Source: Escherichia coli
GTDB lineage: Bacteria; Pseudomonadota; Gammaproteobacteria; Enterobacterales; Enterobacteriaceae
Reading direction: 5' to 3' (one strand)
Assembly (NCBI RefSeq): GCF_003334385.1
Contig: NZ_QOWN01000001.1
Length of the DNA stretch: 64,000 nucleotides
The notes beneath the pieces were generated by a model that was not told where the DNA came from, did not search any database, and worked only from the letters and a program-made list of their open reading frames with translations. Shown one piece after another: positions 11,472 through 47,514 of the stretch (positions within the stretch are counted from its first letter, which is position 1; each line of letters opens with the position of its first letter). The translations under genes were made by a program, and so were the position numbers.

Positions 11472-11572
11472 ACATCGTAGCCGATGAGGACGCGCCTGAT
11501 GGGTGTTCTGGCTACCTGACCTGTCCATTGTGGAAGGTCTTACATTCTCGCTGATTTCAGGAGCTATTGATT

Positions 11573-11986
11573 ATGCGTAACTTTGATTTATCCCCGCTTT
11601 ACCGTTCTGCTATTGGATTTGACCGTTTGTTTAACCACTTAGAAAACAACCAGAGCCAGAGTAATGGCGGCTACCCTCCGTATAACGTTGAACTGGTAGA
11701 CGAAAACCATTACCGCATTGCTATCGCTGTGGCTGGTTTTGCTGAGAGCGAACTGGAAATTACCGCCCAGGATAATCTGCTGGTGGTGAAAGGTGCTCAC
11801 GCCGACGAACAAAAAGAGCGCACCTATCTGTACCAGGGCATCGCTGAACGCAACTTTGAACGCAAATTCCAGTTAGCTGAGAACATTCATGTTCGTGGTG
11901 CTAACCTGGTAAATGGTTTGCTGTATATCGATCTCGAACGCGTGATTCCGGAAGCGAAAAAACCGCGCCGTATCGAAATCAACTAA
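11573..11986 (+). CDS. ibpA: Small heat-shock protein IbpA (alpha-crystallin family)
   Basis: ORF 11567-11986; start [12 protein letters not shown], 137 aa. Confidence 0.95.
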
Positions 11987-25694: not shown

Positions 25695-25802
25695 TAATAT
25701 TTGGACAAAACGCAAACTGTGATCGATACTCAACTATGCACTAAATACGTCAAAATTCGTGCCGAAATTGCGCGTTCTGCGCGGAACACGTATACTTTCA
25801 GT

Positions 25803-25877
25803 GTTGACATAATACAGTGTGCTTTGCGGTTACCAGCCGCAGGCGACTGACGAAACCTCGCTCCGGCGGGGTTTTTT
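25803..25877 (+). ncRNA. istR: Small antisense RNA IstR-1 (antitoxin to tisB); 5' end approximate
   Basis: About 75 nt ending in hairpin plus U-run (cctcgctccggcggggtttttt); its 5' segment repeats the tisAB UTR target site; IstR-2 would start further upstream near the LexA box. Confidence 0.6.
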
Positions 25878-40857: not shown

Positions 40858-42042
40858 CTAAATATCTTTAATAAACAGCAGGCAAATCATCGCAATACCC
40901 AACATCCCTATCGCCAGCCAGAACAACGCATGGTAGCTCCAGATTTCAACCATAATTCCGTCAACAGAGCCGGCGATAATCCAGCCGACGCGTGAAGTAT
41001 TTGCATATAACGTTGTCGCAGAGCCTATTTTTTCAGGCATCAAGTCCTGAAAATAAAGCATGCCGATACCACAGAGAATACCAAGGAAGATGGCATTAAG
41101 AATTTGCAATTCCAGCTCAACCGCCGGAGTCGTCGCCATGAGTACGCTGGCGTAAAAACACATTCCACTCACGATAGCAATGAGCATTAATAGTCGCTTG
41201 CCAATACGTTTCATGTAATAGCCTGCGATTAACATCATCGGAATTTCCAGACCGGCAGCGATACCAATCATTTCTCCAGCCAGTTTATCGGTTAGATGCA
41301 GTTCATCAATAATAAATAGCGGCATATTTATCATGTAGAGATTATTCGCCGCCCACATCATTGAACAGACCACAAAAAGTAGCCGCGTATCCCGCTTCCT
41401 GTGGGTGGAGGGTAAAATTTCTACGGGTTGGGTAACGACAGGAATATTTCTTTGTATTGATGGCAAAAACAACCAGACTATCAGTCCGCAAACAACAAAT
41501 GCGATGGCAGCGGTGAGATACATCACTTTAAAACTAAATCCCATTGCCAGTTCATAAGCGAGCGGTGGCCCGATAACCCAGGCAAGCGAGATCTGAGCAC
41601 GTAAAAATGTACTGAACATGACCGTCTCACGGCCTGTTCTGTCGGCGTGTTCACGGGCGAGGGCGAACATTTGCGGGTTTGCGGTGGAAGCAAAACTACT
41701 CAGAAGTACGCCCGTTGAGAGGAGAATGAAGTAGTTGCGATTCCACGCAAAAAGCGTGCAGGCCAGCACTCCAAATAAGCAACATAGCAGAATCAGTAAC
41801 TTACGGTCGCCTTGTTTATCGGAGTGCCTTGCCAGAAATTGACTGACCAGAATTCCCATAATAGCGCTACCGGTGAAGAAAAAACCTACCATTATAGGAC
41901 GGGCTTTCAGTTCATCTGCGAGGAATATACTTAGGGTAGGAGTCTGAAGAGCGCCCGCAATACCCGTCAGAAAGGCGACAAGTAAAAATGCCGCGGCAGT
42001 GAGATCAAGTATTTTTGATGGAGTGGTAGCCGTTTTTTGCAT
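40858..42042 (-). CDS. setC: Sugar efflux transporter SetC (MFS)
   Basis: 394 aa MFS; in E. coli this gene sits immediately downstream of selC. Confidence 0.9.
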   Translation of the reverse strand: MQKTATTPSKILDLTAAAFLLVAFLTGIAGALQTPTLSIFLADELKARPIMVGFFFTGSAIMGILVSQFLARHSDKQGDRKLLILLCCLFGVLACTLFAWNRNYFILLSTGVLLSSFASTANPQMFALAREHADRTGRETVMFSTFLRAQISLAWVIGPPLAYELAMGFSFKVMYLTAAIAFVVCGLIVWLFLPSIQRNIPVVTQPVEILPSTHRKRDTRLLFVVCSMMWAANNLYMINMPLFIIDELHLTDKLAGEMIGIAAGLEIPMMLIAGYYMKRIGKRLLMLIAIVSGMCFYASVLMATTPAVELELQILNAIFLGILCGIGMLYFQDLMPEKIGSATTLYANTSRVGWIIAGSVDGIMVEIWSYHALFWLAIGMLGIAMICLLFIKDI

Positions 42043-42678
42043 TCTTCTGAATCACCGGGCGAAAAAATATAACTGAGTTACAAATAAGTACCAGTCGAAT
42101 GAGTATTGTATTAAGAATTTTTGAGTATCGCTGATACAACCAGAAAGCAATGCTAGCGCAATATTATAGGGCCAGCAATTGAGATTATTAGTAAAAGCAT
42201 GTTAAGAATTAATTACCGAATTTATATATTAATTATAGTAAGGCAATGAGCTATTTTTGATAGTAAAAATAAAACAAGTTGATTTGATATATTAAATGAA
42301 CAAATTAATCTTGATGGCAGTCTGATTATTGGTGAAGTTTATAGTCAGTTTTTTTCGCCAGCGGTTAAAGAAATAGAATAGTCGTATAAAAAAGGGTGTT
42401 CTGGGGCGAGTAAAACAACATCTTCACCTTAATGGCGATACAGTTGGCTGAGAGTCAGCAGGGGGGCAAATCACCTGCAAATAAACACGGCGCATACTGG
42501 CGTGAATATCGCGGATGCGTTCGAGGACAGAAGAACCGACAGGCGGATTCTTCAGCCGCTCATCGTCCATCACAAAACCTTAGACCAGGTATTCCTGAAG
42601 CCGATTGAATATTGAGCAGTAGAAAATATCTGGATTGACAGTATTACAAGGGGTTGGAGAACGTCAGGAGAGGCATTT

Positions 42679-42702
42679 TGGCGGAAGATCACAGGAGTCG
42701 AA
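42679..42702 (-). other. selC: 3'-terminal 24 nt of tRNA-Sec (selC): attachment-site core marking the island boundary; the rest of the tRNA is not in the window
   Basis: tggcggaagatcacaggagtcgaa is the reverse complement of the recalled selC 3' end (TTCGACTCCTGTGATCTTCCGCCA); the sequence then diverges into AT-rich foreign DNA. Confidence 0.8.
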
Positions 42703-42834
42703 TATAAGTATTAATGCATTGATCTTAAATAATTTGTATGTGTTGGATAAATGAGTAACCCCCATAAGAACCCCCAAATGATTTTGCATGAAGGAATGAA
42801 GCTAAAATACATAATTGAATCAATTCTTAGTACT

Positions 42835-43680
42835 CTATTGTGAAGGTAACATTTCCGGATAGTGTCTGGCTATAATATCATTTAGCCGATCAACCAGTTC
42901 TGGTTTCCTGAACGTGATGTGCGCGGAGCCCTTCTTAAAGTATCTGATGCTGAACATTTCATCTTCATAGCACTCTTTACCCTGAACAGACCGGATGTGC
43001 TCATCCAGATGAATAGTGATGTTTTCCCGGTTGTCGGGGATCGGTTTGCCGCTGAACAGATGCAGCATTCTTTACAGGTCGGCAAGTCGATCGGCCTGTG
43101 GGCCGTTGTTCAGATGAAATCCCCATCTGTCCCACCTCACCAGATTGTTGACGATAATTTTACTGCCAAATTTACAGGGTGAATTGTTTTTGTAATTCCA
43201 GCTCAGTCCCCTGAAAACATTAATTACCCCTCGCTCAAACACCTCATCCTTATTCTGGTGCAGTTGTTCAAATGTGCTCAGAATGTTCGCTTCACTGATT
43301 TCCGGAAAATTATCGTACTCCAGTGACCGGTACCATGTATCACGGGCCTGCGCATCCATTAATGACAGCATCCCGGAACGTTGCATCAGGTCACGCCAGA
43401 TTTCGCGGTCAAGGTTGCGGGTGATGGCTTTCATTGCTGTTTCAGGTTTCTCCATGAGCCAGCATCCGCAGCGAAAATTCTGTTTCATCGCCCAGTCCCG
43501 TGCGCTTTTACCACCAATGCTTTTTGTCAGTACTGAGATTTCAGTCAGTTGCCGGATAAGCGTTTCGGTTTGTTGCAGTGCTGCATTCCGTACCGTCACA
43601 ACGTGTCGGATACTGGTGGAGCAGATAACGTCCGTATTCCCGGTGACCACTTCCGGATGGGAGATTGTGATGTTTGACAT
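42835..43680 (-). pseudogene. Conserved island protein (possibly DUF4942 family) interrupted by an in-frame TAA
   Basis: ORFs 43072-43680 and 42835-43068 are in the same frame, separated only by TAA (43072-43074) and one codon; together about 281 codons. Confidence 0.6.
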
Positions 43681-43764
43681 TATCGGTTTCCCTTTTGGTT
43701 TATAAACGAAAACGCCAGCCGTATTCAGGCTGGCGTCAGTGGAATGAAGTCTGGTGAGTAAGGC

Positions 43765-44007
43765 TCACCGGTTCTGTTGCAGAAGCTGCAGTTGGCGCAG
43801 GGTATGGATATCCTCCCTCGCCTGTTCAATGCAGGGCAGCAGTGCTGCCGAATCCGTTTTATCCTCATCGTTGTCAAAGATAATTCCCGATTCGCAGTCG
43901 ATATTGTCCTGCAGCCACGCAATCAGAATATCCAGTGCTGTTTCCGTGGTTAATGATTTCATGTTGTTCCTGGTTACCAGTTGAAAGTGGGTAAACCCGG
44001 CAGGCAT
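43765..44007 (-). CDS. Small hypothetical protein (CP4-type island)
   Basis: 80-aa ORF downstream of the toxin module; acidic and coding-like; no function assignable. Confidence 0.4.
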   Translation of the reverse strand: MPAGFTHFQLVTRNNMKSLTTETALDILIAWLQDNIDCESGIIFDNDEDKTDSAALLPCIEQAREDIHTLRQLQLLQQNR

Positions 44008-44462
44008 TCAGCGCTGGCATCCAGATGAATGAGACTGACGCCATAACGTCGGGTAAGTGTGACAACCAGACAACGGAACGTTTTTGACAGGCCCAGGCGC
44101 TTAAGCCGCAGAACCGGGTATGACCACGCATCGGTACGTAACAGATAGCCGCTGCCTGTAAAATGAATCCATTCTGATTCGCCGTCGTCATTAGTCTGGT
44201 GTGACAGCGAGTACAGCCAGGCGTTGTCCGTTTCCGTGATATGTGCGGTGCTGCAACGTATGCAGGTAAGGGTTGTTAACGGTGGTGGTGTACTGGTTGC
44301 GTGTTGGTCGGATTTATCGACCACGCGGAGTAAATAACCGTTTTCAGAGACCTTGTTAATCAGTTCACTGAGATTAACACCATCGACGTCAACGACAATG
44401 CGCCCCATGTTCAGTGCCTGCACGTTAACGCTGTCGGCTTCCAGCGTCAGGGCCAGTTTCAT
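43974..44462 (-). CDS. Hypothetical protein downstream of CbtA (YeeW-like position)
   Basis: 162 aa; start overlaps the cbtA-like stop (ATGA); positional analogue of yeeW in CP4-44. Confidence 0.5.
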
Positions 44463-44836
44463 TGTTTTGCCTCCGGATGCTTGCCCTGGGTAATGTTATT
44501 TACCATTCTGTAATTGTTCCGGGTCATCAGGCCGGTTGCCCTGCGAGCCCGGAGAATATCAATGCTGTTGATTAACTGCGACGGGGCTCCTGCGCTGAAT
44601 CCCGGCTGGTCGGTACGTACCAGCGCGTATTTTTCAACGAGAAAGTTCACCGCGTCACACAGTGAAATCCCTGCCTCAATATGCTGCTCAATCACACGTT
44701 CATCAGCGAACGGTGTGTCATTCAGCGTGAGGCCATAGTGCTGGTCCAGCAGTCGGGTGAGCAGTGTCTGCCAGATGGTGACGGGAGACGGGCAGCCCGA
44801 TGCCTCCCGTACGTGAGTGTCGGGTAATGTATTCAT
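44459..44836 (-). CDS. CbtA/YeeV/YkfI-family type IV toxin
   Basis: From MNTLPDTH, 125 aa; strong similarity to recalled YeeV ([52 protein letters not shown]). Confidence 0.85.
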
Positions 44837-44882: not shown

Positions 44883-45320
44883 TTATACGGTGATTGCGGG
44901 CGCTGCCGGTGTCGGATAAACAGCCAGATAAACGTAACCACAACTGCCAAGGGTATCGGCTTCGCAGGTCAGCCCTTTCGCATACAGTGTGATGGTATGC
45001 TGATGGCGGGGATTCAGTTCACCGCTGGTGAGCATGAGTTCCAGTTGTTTCATCAGCAGCGGAAAGGCCTGGTCCAGGTGGTATGCATCCGCGTCGCTGA
45101 ACCGGCCTCTGATACCGGCACGGTCGGCAAGGTAATGCAACCGGTTACCCTCCTGCACCAGACGTGCCCCGAAACAGGGCGTCACGGTGCAGGGCAGCCC
45201 CCACCAGGGGCGGTCGTGATTGTCGTCGGGATGCGTTGTCCCGGGCAGTGTGTCTGACACGATAAAGTCCTCACAGAAATCAGTTAAGAATGGTTCGATG
45301 GTGGCGATAATTCGGCTCAT
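44883..45320 (-). CDS. CbeA/YeeU/YafW-family antitoxin
   Basis: Contains [49 protein letters not shown]; the true start may be the internal GTG (VSDTLPG), giving about 124 aa. Confidence 0.85.
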
Positions 45321-46695: not shown

Positions 46696-47514
46696 TCAGC
46701 GCATGTTCTCCAGCAGCGTTTCTGTCATTACCCACAATGCGCGATTGAGCTTAATGTCCGTGTCGATGCTGTGAATGGCACGGGTGTGGATACGTTTTCC
46801 TTTAGCGCTGCGACCGGAAATCCCGCCTTTCAGCATATTCTCCTGGATGGTCTGATATGCGCTCCACAGGTCCTTACCGTAATCCTCCCGGCGTCGCGGC
46901 GTCAGAATGTCGGCGGTGGTGACGGGCTGATGTTCGTCACCATAACGGTAAGTCAGTGCCGCCTGTGCCAGCGCCTGGCGTGCCGGTGGCGGCAGAATCA
47001 GCGACTGCATGGCATCACGCTTTTCCTCAATCCGGTCAAACACGCCCACCACCTTGTAAGCCCCTTCAATGACTCTGTCCACCACATTTCCCCGGTGCGG
47101 AACACGCACTTCCCCCAGAGACTGACCACAGACGCATCCGTTCTGGCAGACGAACCTGAAGTAACCCGGCAGCATCTGGTAGCTGGAGGTACCGTCATGG
47201 GAGTTCAGCAGGATGATTTCAGGGACATGTTGTCCGTTTATCTCCCCGTCACGGCGCAGACGCAGCATGTGTTTGGTGTATCCCCGGCGGCCCGGGTCGC
47301 GCACACGGGTCTGGCAGGCGAAGAATGGCTGAAAACCTTCCCGCTGCAGGCTTTCCAGCACTGTGATGGTGGGGATCCAGGTATAGTTCTCGCTTCTGGA
47401 TGTGTGCTTATCTTCCCCGAATACGCTGGGGACGACCTGCATCAGTTCTTCACGAGTTAAGGGACGATCACGGCGTATCTGATTTACATGACCAAAACGA
47501 CTGGCTAATTGCAT
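46696..47514 (-). CDS. DUF932-family protein (YafZ/YfjQ-like)
   Basis: 272 aa; family and position typical of CP4-like elements. Confidence 0.75.
   Translation of the reverse strand: MQLASRFGHVNQIRRDRPLTREELMQVVPSVFGEDKHTSRSENYTWIPTITVLESLQREGFQPFFACQTRVRDPGRRGYTKHMLRLRRDGEINGQHVPEIILLNSHDGTSSYQMLPGYFRFVCQNGCVCGQSLGEVRVPHRGNVVDRVIEGAYKVVGVFDRIEEKRDAMQSLILPPPARQALAQAALTYRYGDEHQPVTTADILTPRRREDYGKDLWSAYQTIQENMLKGGISGRSAKGKRIHTRAIHSIDTDIKLNRALWVMTETLLENMR

What the first reader, a model, noticed from the sequence alone, without database searches (positions are those of the whole stretch)
42835..43680. Island gene split by a single in-frame TAA
The 202-codon and 77-codon minus-strand ORFs share a reading frame and are separated only by TAA (43072-43074) plus one codon, so this is one gene of about 281 codons inactivated, or truncated to its N-terminal 202 aa, by a nonsense mutation. 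It sits next to the CbtA/CbeA module, where such accessory genes commonly decay.
Basis: seen in the sequence. Interest (0 to 1): 0.35.

Follow-up and report, generated by a model that had tools for sequence, protein, structure and literature searches.

The report
Nonsense-mutated DUF4942 island pseudogene
A 281-codon accessory gene of unknown function (DUF4942 family) at the end of an E. coli genomic island has been cut short by one G-to-T base change that made a TAA stop codon; this is ordinary gene decay, and public annotation already flags the identical allele as a pseudogene.

Summary
On the minus strand, a 202-codon ORF (43680-43075) ends at TAA (43074-43072). One codon later (AGA), a 77-codon ORF (43068-42838, stop 42837-42835) follows in the same frame.

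Both pieces belong to one DUF4942 (PF13708) gene. E. coli GN02350 carries the same 1101 bp with a single difference, GAA (Glu203) instead of TAA. So the lesion is one G>T change on the coding strand, at window position 43074.

Homologues in Escherichia, Salmonella, Citrobacter and Serratia are about 280-282 aa and run straight across this position. None ends there.

The stop removes about 39% of the Pfam domain, including the family-invariant His254 and Asn267. In a confident AlphaFold model it also removes three strands and two and a half helices. The downstream ATG has no Shine-Dalgarno sequence.

A sequencing error is unlikely. The identical allele is present in all 12 fetched loci that carry it, and its 202-aa product is on record from 82 contigs. 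RefSeq marks it "internal stop" in UPEC132. It is rare: 2 of 5426 complete E. coli genomes.

The intact family is uncharacterised. It is enriched in the leading regions of conjugative plasmids and is sometimes fused to methyltransferase domains.

Verdict: an ordinary, already annotated pseudogene of low interest.

The parts
42835..43680 (-). Whole DUF4942-family gene (281 codons plus stop), here a pseudogene with an internal TAA.
Evidence: Pfam PF13708 matches the intact allele at E=6e-68, covering aa 87-276 and model positions 1-190 of 190.
43072..43680 (-). N-terminal ORF of 202 codons plus the premature TAA. This is the only product expected at normal levels.
   Evidence: The start has a Shine-Dalgarno-like AAGGG (-5.3 kcal/mol against the anti-SD). 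The exact 202-aa product is on record from 82 contigs.
43072..43074 (-). Premature stop codon TAA at codon 203. The mutated base is at 43074: T on the coding strand, A on the + strand. The parent codon is GAA (Glu).
   Evidence: Alignments with EC958 and GN02350. In GN02350 this is the only difference in 1101 bp.
42835..43068 (-). C-terminal remnant: codons 205-281 plus the natural TAG stop. It opens with the gene's own Met205.
   Evidence: It contains the family-invariant His254 and Asn267. There is no Shine-Dalgarno sequence upstream (-0.9 kcal/mol).
43479..43479 (-). Linked missense variant Asp68Asn (GAT>AAT) relative to the common allele WP_000065751.1. It predates the stop.
   Evidence: The Asn68/Glu203 intact allele exists on 144 contigs and in GN02350.
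43679..43737 (-). A terminator-like hairpin (43737-43711, then a T-rich tail) followed by a promoter-like site (43706-43679), immediately upstream of the gene's ATG.
   Evidence: These are consensus matches only. The counts are not above the shuffled expectation.
43765..44836 (-). Upstream neighbours on the same strand: DUF957 (43765-43962), DUF5983 (43974-44462) and the CbtA-family toxin (44459-44836).
   Evidence: Mapped from the UPEC132 RefSeq annotation. That island stretch is 99.6% identical to the window. ORFs are listed.
44883..45260 (-). CbeA (YeeU-family) antitoxin gene.
   Evidence: mapped to the window; ORF.

Best explanation
This is a single DUF4942-family gene, the last gene of a CP4-type genomic island that abuts setC/yicL. 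One G>T transversion on the coding strand (window 43074) changed codon 203 from GAA (Glu) to the ochre stop TAA and disabled the gene.

Shown:
- The point change itself.
- Its parent allele.
- The full-length architecture of the family.
- The loss of conserved residues.

Inferred:
- Translation from the normal start now ends after 202 residues. UAA is read by both release factors (established knowledge).
- The last 78 residues are missing from the product. They include about 39% of the DUF4942 domain, the invariant His254 and Asn267, half of helix 194-209, helix 221-231, three beta-strands and the C-terminal helix.
- The product is therefore most likely misfolded or inactive.
- The downstream 77-codon ORF is a remnant. 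It has no ribosome-binding site and could be made only by inefficient reinitiation after termination.

The mutation happened once. Every copy of the allele is identical over 846 nt. It has since persisted and been carried into at least three chromosomal backgrounds, which suggests the gene is dispensable once the island is resident.

The function of the intact protein is unknown. By context it is most likely an establishment or anti-defence accessory factor of mobile elements. It is not itself a methyltransferase.
For: - Frame and coordinates.
- Single-base parent allele: GN02350 differs only at 43074 over 1101 bp, and its gene is annotated intact. EC958 and AMSCJX03 also have GAA.
- Family length: the best 120 of 2477 database homologues are mostly 280-282 aa.
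- Conservation: the close-homologue alignment keeps Glu203, and 25 invariant columns lie downstream of it. In the diverse alignment (27-57% identity) W95, D201, H254 and N267 are invariant, so two invariant residues lie beyond the stop.
- Domain: Pfam DUF4942 spans aa 87-276.
- Structure: AlphaFold model with pLDDT 89.3 and pTM 0.82. The stop lies inside helix 194-209, and strands 237-239, 243-247 and 253-257 lie downstream.
- No Shine-Dalgarno sequence before the internal ATG: -0.9 kcal/mol, against -5.3 for the true start.
- Not an assembly artefact: the allele is identical in all 12 fetched loci that carry it, including complete genomes and gut metagenomes. The 202-aa product is on 82 contigs and in 128 index blocks.
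- RefSeq flags UPEC132 FE252_RS01730 as a pseudogene, 'internal stop'.
- Rarity: only 2 of 5426 complete genomes hold the exact 61-mer with TAA.
Against: - No expression, protein or read-level data are available, so loss of function is inferred rather than shown.
- The allele has accumulated no further lesions. It persists in many isolates across more than one background. That fits a recent neutral event, but it does not exclude a tolerated or useful truncated product.
- An ATG lies 3 nt after the stop, so some reinitiation cannot be excluded.
Confidence: 0.93

Rival explanations
1. The truncation is tolerated or functional. Either the 202-aa N-terminal fragment keeps, or gains, an activity, or the ribosome reinitiates at the ATG 3 nt after the stop and the two fragments reassemble as a split protein.
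For: - The stop and the next ATG are only 3 nt apart. Such spacing permits termination-reinitiation in bacteria (established knowledge).
- The allele is widespread and carries no second lesion.
- It sits in at least three backgrounds.
Against: - There is no Shine-Dalgarno sequence (-0.9 kcal/mol, below the gene-wide background mean of -2.8).
- The break falls inside a predicted helix, not in a loop or domain boundary.
- No homologue among thousands is naturally split or ends here.
- Invariant residues lie on both sides of the break.
Confidence: 0.05
2. The TAA is a sequencing or assembly error in this window, and the gene is really intact.
For: A single-base substitution is the kind of difference an error could produce, and read data are not available.
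Against: - Exactly the same base is found in UPEC132, N50 and ten further loci from separate NCBI, ENA and JGI assemblies and metagenomes, all 846/846 identical.
- The 202-aa product has been called on 82 contigs.
- Substitution errors that recur identically across platforms are not expected.
Confidence: 0.015
3. These are two genuine adjacent genes, or a gene with a programmed stop-codon readthrough.
For: Some gene callers report both ORFs as separate proteins.
Against: - Orthologues carry a sense codon here. Of 162 complete-genome records that are at least 99% identical over the region, only 2 have TAA.
- Homologues down to about 30% identity are single proteins of about 260-290 aa that cover both parts.
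- UAA is the least leaky stop codon in E. coli (established knowledge).
- The stop is not conserved, which programmed recoding would require.
Confidence: 0.005

Closest known systems
[not shown]
   Same: - The locus and gene order are the same: antirestriction, RadC/JAB, DUF987, CbeA, CbtA, DUF5983, DUF957, DUF4942, then yicL.
- DNA identity is 99.8-99.9%.
- The L0010/orf56 equivalence is stated in PMC6980539.
   Different: The window copy carries TAA at codon 203, so it encodes only residues 1-202.
RefSeq pseudogene FE252_RS01730 of E. coli UPEC132 (NZ_CP040456.1), 'DUF4942 domain-containing protein, internal stop'.
   Same: It is 100% identical over 1101 bp, including the TAA.
   Different: The chromosomal background differs. 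UPEC132 core genes are about 94% identical to the window, and UPEC132 has a 165-aa hypothetical gene where the window has intact setC.
YdiA/YgfB, the DUF4942 proteins of conjugative-plasmid leading regions.
   Same: - Same Pfam family and length, at 31-38% identity.
- Found in 4272 plasmids, 93% of them predicted conjugative.
- They sit beside oriT/nikA with ArdA and PsiB in an IncI-gamma/K1 plasmid, and with an antirestriction gene and ssb in an IncL/M plasmid.
- They are listed among the largest leading-region-enriched families, ranks 24 and 76, in PMC11541004 supplementary file 3.
- The island copy likewise lies a few genes from an antirestriction (PF03230) gene.
   Different: This copy is chromosomal and on an island rather than a plasmid, it is a distant paralogue, and it is inactivated here. 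No member has a tested function.
Phage and mobile-element DNA methyltransferases with an N-terminal DUF4942 domain (PHROG 6263; representative P0251, 468 aa).
   Same: The DUF4942 domain is shared. PHROG 6263 matches at E=6e-18 over profile positions 83-287 of 548. P0251 has DUF4942 followed by the MTS methyltransferase domain PF05175. Phage hits are annotated as methylases.
   Different: The island protein ends where the methyltransferase domain would begin. No methyltransferase domain is detected in it, and no Rossmann-fold match is found.

Membership tests
Pfam PF13708 (DUF4942) | A significant match to the family HMM over its full length. | tested here: met
   The intact allele, 2 nt different from the window, matches at E=6.1e-68, model positions 1-190 of 190, aa 87-276. 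Both window fragments carry PF13708 hits in public gene calls.
Pfam PF13708 (DUF4942) | A continuous protein of about 260-290 aa that covers both halves of the domain. | tested here: not met
   The window copy is interrupted at codon 203. It is a disrupted member, not an intact one.
Pseudogene by nonsense mutation | An in-frame stop at a position that is a sense codon in orthologues, with homology continuing in the same frame beyond it. | tested here: met
   The codon is GAA in GN02350, EC958 and AMSCJX03. Glu203 is present in 14 of 15 close homologues. A single 281-aa alignment runs across the stop.
Pseudogene by nonsense mutation | A parent allele that differs only by the stop-creating base. 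| tested here: met
   GN02350 has 1 difference in 1101 bp, at window 43074. The exact 281-aa parent protein is on 144 contigs.
Pseudogene by nonsense mutation | Loss of function, or absence of a full-length product. | not testable with these tools
   This is inferred only, from the loss of invariant H254 and N267 and of three strands and two and a half helices.
Class I SAM-dependent DNA methyltransferase (the legacy names 'restriction methylase' and 'restriction endonuclease subunit M') | A Rossmann-type SAM-binding domain detectable by profile or by fold. | tested here: not met
   [not shown]
Leading-region establishment or anti-defence genes of conjugative elements | Enrichment next to oriT, together with antirestriction, ssb and psiB genes. 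| tested here: met
   This holds for the family, not for this copy (PMC11541004 supplementary file 3). PADLOC defence models give no hit.
Leading-region establishment or anti-defence genes of conjugative elements | A demonstrated anti-defence activity. | not testable with these tools
   No experimental report on a DUF4942 function was found. Only 4 papers in the library mention the name, none of them functional.
Programmed stop-codon readthrough or recoding | The stop codon is conserved among orthologues. | tested here: not met
   The exact TAA-bearing 61-mer is in 2 of 5426 complete genomes, and the other near-identical copies have a sense codon.

The most novel reading that the evidence does not exclude
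The truncation may not be neutral decay. The TAA allele could have spread by recombination into several E. coli backgrounds because losing, or shortening, this leading-region-type DUF4942 factor is advantageous once the island is resident. Alternatively, the 202-aa fragment, perhaps with a reinitiated 77-aa fragment, could retain a distinct activity.
Probability: 0.05. Interest if true: 0.35.

Novelty: already known. Interest (0 to 1): 0.08.

Why it matters
It matters little in itself. This is a routine, lineage-restricted pseudogene in a decaying accessory module, and the annotation pipeline already flags it.

It has two minor uses:
- The single-base allele is a clean marker for following recombinational exchange of this island end between E. 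coli lineages.
- It is a natural knock-out of a DUF4942 gene. That family is very common in the leading regions of conjugative plasmids, is uncharacterised, and has no solved structural relative. Isogenic comparison with strains that carry the one-base-different intact allele could help assign a function.

Tried and rejected
- Function by sequence. NCBIfam gave only a sub-threshold chance hit. PADLOC gave no hit. PDB sequence searches with the single protein and with the profile gave nothing meaningful.
- A literature search for L0009/L0010/selC returned irrelevant papers, apart from the SRL-island table already found.
- I looked for tRNA-Sec (selC) as the island's attachment site. There is no tRNA in the window by ARAGORN or Rfam, so the tRNA-proximal end of the island is outside the window or absent.
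- I looked for repeats marking the island boundary in 42000-42900 and found nothing convincing.
- I considered that the window might simply be UPEC132. This is rejected: core genes are only about 94% identical, and setC is intact in the window.
- I considered an independent start for the 77-codon ORF. This is rejected for lack of a Shine-Dalgarno sequence.

Full report
**Observation.**
- An ATG at 43680 opens 202 sense codons that end at TAA (43074-43072).
- One codon (AGA) follows.
- An ATG at 43068 then opens 77 codons in the same frame, ending at TAG (42837-42835).
- The whole stretch is 846 nt, which is 281 codons plus a stop if the TAA is read as a codon.

**What it is.** A megablast of the region against 5426 complete E. 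coli genomes finds it in 3954 of them, annotated "DUF4942 domain-containing protein".
- In EC958 the gene is intact (281 aa, WP_000065751.1) and differs from the window at two bases. These are GAA instead of TAA at codon 203, and GAT instead of AAT at codon 68.
- GN02350 has the Asn68 variant with GAA. It differs from the window at a single base in 1101, the coding-strand G/T at window 43074, and its gene is annotated intact.
- The exact 281-aa parent protein is on record from 144 contigs.
- The lesion is therefore one G>T transversion on the coding strand (C>A on the + strand).

**The family spans the stop.**
- Pfam DUF4942 (PF13708) matches the intact protein over aa 87-276, covering the entire model, at E=6e-68. 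The stop at 203 therefore deletes about 39% of the domain.
- Of 2477 database homologues, the best 120 are mostly 280-282 aa, from Escherichia, Salmonella, Citrobacter and Serratia.
- In an alignment of 15 of them with the window, all but one keep Glu203. The exception is Aec79, whose sequence is locally frameshifted. There are 25 invariant columns downstream of position 203.
- A search of 1.84 billion cluster representatives finds 2202 relatives.
- An alignment of 62 full-length representatives at 27-57% identity has four invariant residues: W95, D201, H254 and N267. Two of them lie beyond the stop.

**Consequences for the protein.**
- An AlphaFold2 model built on that alignment is confident (pLDDT 89.3, pTM 0.82).
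- The stop falls inside helix 194-209.
- Helix 221-231, strands 237-239, 243-247 and 253-257, and helix 260-273 are all downstream. Only the first three strands of the sheet are left.
- The internal ATG (Met205 of the normal protein) has no Shine-Dalgarno complementarity: -0.9 kcal/mol, against -5.3 for the real start and a gene-wide background mean of -2.8.
- From established knowledge, UAA is recognised by both RF1 and RF2 and is the least leaky stop codon in E. coli.
- I infer that a 202-residue fragment is the only product made in quantity, and that it is probably unstable or inactive. This step is not shown.

**Real allele or error?**
- Only 2 of 5426 complete genomes (UPEC132 and N50) hold the exact 61-mer centred on the TAA. 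330 others are 95-99% identical, and all 38 of those listed differ by a single base.
- The exact 202-aa product is nevertheless recorded on 82 contigs from NCBI, JGI and ENA. These include the HVH clinical isolates. The index lists it in 128 blocks.
- All 12 fetched loci that carry the allele are 846/846 identical to the window gene.
- This rules out a private sequencing error and points to a single mutational origin.

**Backgrounds.**
- The window's core genes are 99.6% identical to AMSCJX03, which has the intact gene.
- They are about 94-95% identical to the UPEC132-type carriers, which also lack an intact setC.
- They are about 97% identical to a third carrier, OZ039764.1.
- Mismatch maps show no differences from the two carrier genomes (UPEC132 and OZ039764.1) across 43000-44499, with differences accumulating on both sides.
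- The block bearing the TAA has thus been moved among backgrounds by recombination, or with the island.

**Decay of this module is common.**
- In one ENA assembly the same gene is split by an IS3-family element at gene nt 598-600.
- In Citrobacter freundii CFNIH1 it is split by an IS110-family element at nt 560-562 and has lost its 5' end.
- In EC958 the neighbouring DUF957 gene is frameshifted.
- In GN02350 the YeeU-family antitoxin has an internal stop.

**Context.** The gene is the last one of a CP4-type island.
- On the minus strand the order is DUF932, antirestriction (PF03230), RadC/JAB, DUF987, CbeA, CbtA, DUF5983, DUF957, DUF4942.
- A rhuM fragment, setC and yicL follow.
- Further into the island lie ireA and an IS3 element.
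- No tRNA gene is present in the window.
- The homologous genes are L0010 in the EDL933 LEE-flanking region and orf56 in the Shigella SRL island (PMC6980539).

**What the intact protein may do.** No function is known. Only four papers in the library mention DUF4942, none of them functionally.
- Sequence and fold searches against solved structures find nothing convincing.
- AFDB returns only the family itself.
- Three context clues exist:
  - In some relatives and phage proteins the domain is fused upstream of a SAM-methyltransferase domain. This explains the legacy names "restriction methylase", but the island protein has no such domain.
  - Homologues at 31-38% identity occur in 4272 plasmids, 93% of them conjugative. 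They lie beside oriT/nikA with ardA, psiB and ssb.
- My best guess, with low confidence, is an establishment or anti-defence accessory factor that is useful on entry into a new host and dispensable afterwards. That would fit its repeated inactivation in resident islands.

**Verdict.** The feature is a single-base nonsense pseudogene of a known though uncharacterised family, and public annotation already flags the identical allele. Interest is low.

Noticed in passing
window 42700-44550 (compared with L001, L003, L007): The roughly 1.8-kb block carrying the TAA allele is identical in carrier genomes from two other chromosomal backgrounds, with core identity to the window of about 94-95% and about 97%; the window's own core is 99.6% identical to AMSCJX03, which has the intact gene. 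Mismatches pile up on both sides of the block. This is a mosaic pattern that suggests recombinational spread of the island end.
   Followed up: partly
L011 1128-3234; L013 1216-3234: The same gene has been disrupted independently elsewhere. An IS3-family element is inserted at gene nt 598-600 in an ENA assembly, 7 nt from the TAA site. An IS110-family element is inserted at nt 560-562, with loss of the 5' end, in Citrobacter freundii CFNIH1.
   Followed up: partly
window ~42438-42600 (-): There is a short rhuM-family pseudogene fragment between the DUF4942 gene and setC. It is annotated in the near-identical AMSCJX03 region and corresponds to the 49-aa ORF 42424-42573.
   Followed up: no
window 40858-42042 (-): setC is intact (394 aa) in the window. 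The UPEC132, EC958 and GN02350 type of locus has a 165-aa hypothetical gene between the island end and yicL, and is 831 bp shorter.
   Followed up: partly
window 43679-43737 (-): A 10-bp, GC-rich hairpin with a T-rich tail lies directly after DUF957. A promoter-like site follows just before the DUF4942 ATG. The gene may therefore be transcribed separately from the cbeA-cbtA genes. These are consensus matches only.
   Followed up: no
window 46996-47098 (-): There is a cluster of 13 mismatches to UPEC132 within about 100 bp of the DUF932 gene, in an island stretch that is otherwise 99.6% identical. It looks like a short recombination tract.
   Followed up: no
L018 6968-7816; L019 6944-7804: Plasmid DUF4942 homologues (YdiA/YgfB) sit in leading regions. 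In an IncI-gamma/K1 plasmid the gene lies close to nikA/oriT, separated only by a small mobC-annotated gene, downstream of psiB, psiA and ardA. In an IncL/M plasmid it lies near an antirestriction gene and ssb. The family has no solved structural relative.
   Followed up: partly
window 58924-60137, 55482-57530, 25748-25877, 11507-11579: Other features of the window: an IS3-family element with an ALIL frameshift pseudoknot (59205-59321); the siderophore receptor gene ireA inside the island; the istR sRNA of the tisB locus; and the ROSE_2 thermoregulator, probably the ibpA leader.
   Followed up: no
L020 1520-1912; L002 5844-6036: Different genes of the same module are pseudogenes in other strains. 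The YeeU-family antitoxin has an internal stop in GN02350 while its CbtA toxin gene is annotated intact. DUF957 is frameshifted in EC958.
   Followed up: no
P0046 (Aec79), aligned to window residues ~197-219: The Aec79 protein sequence departs from the family for about 23 residues around the stop site. Over that stretch it matches the window's +1-frame ORF 43001-43135, so the deposited sequence has a compensated double frameshift or a sequencing error.
   Followed up: no
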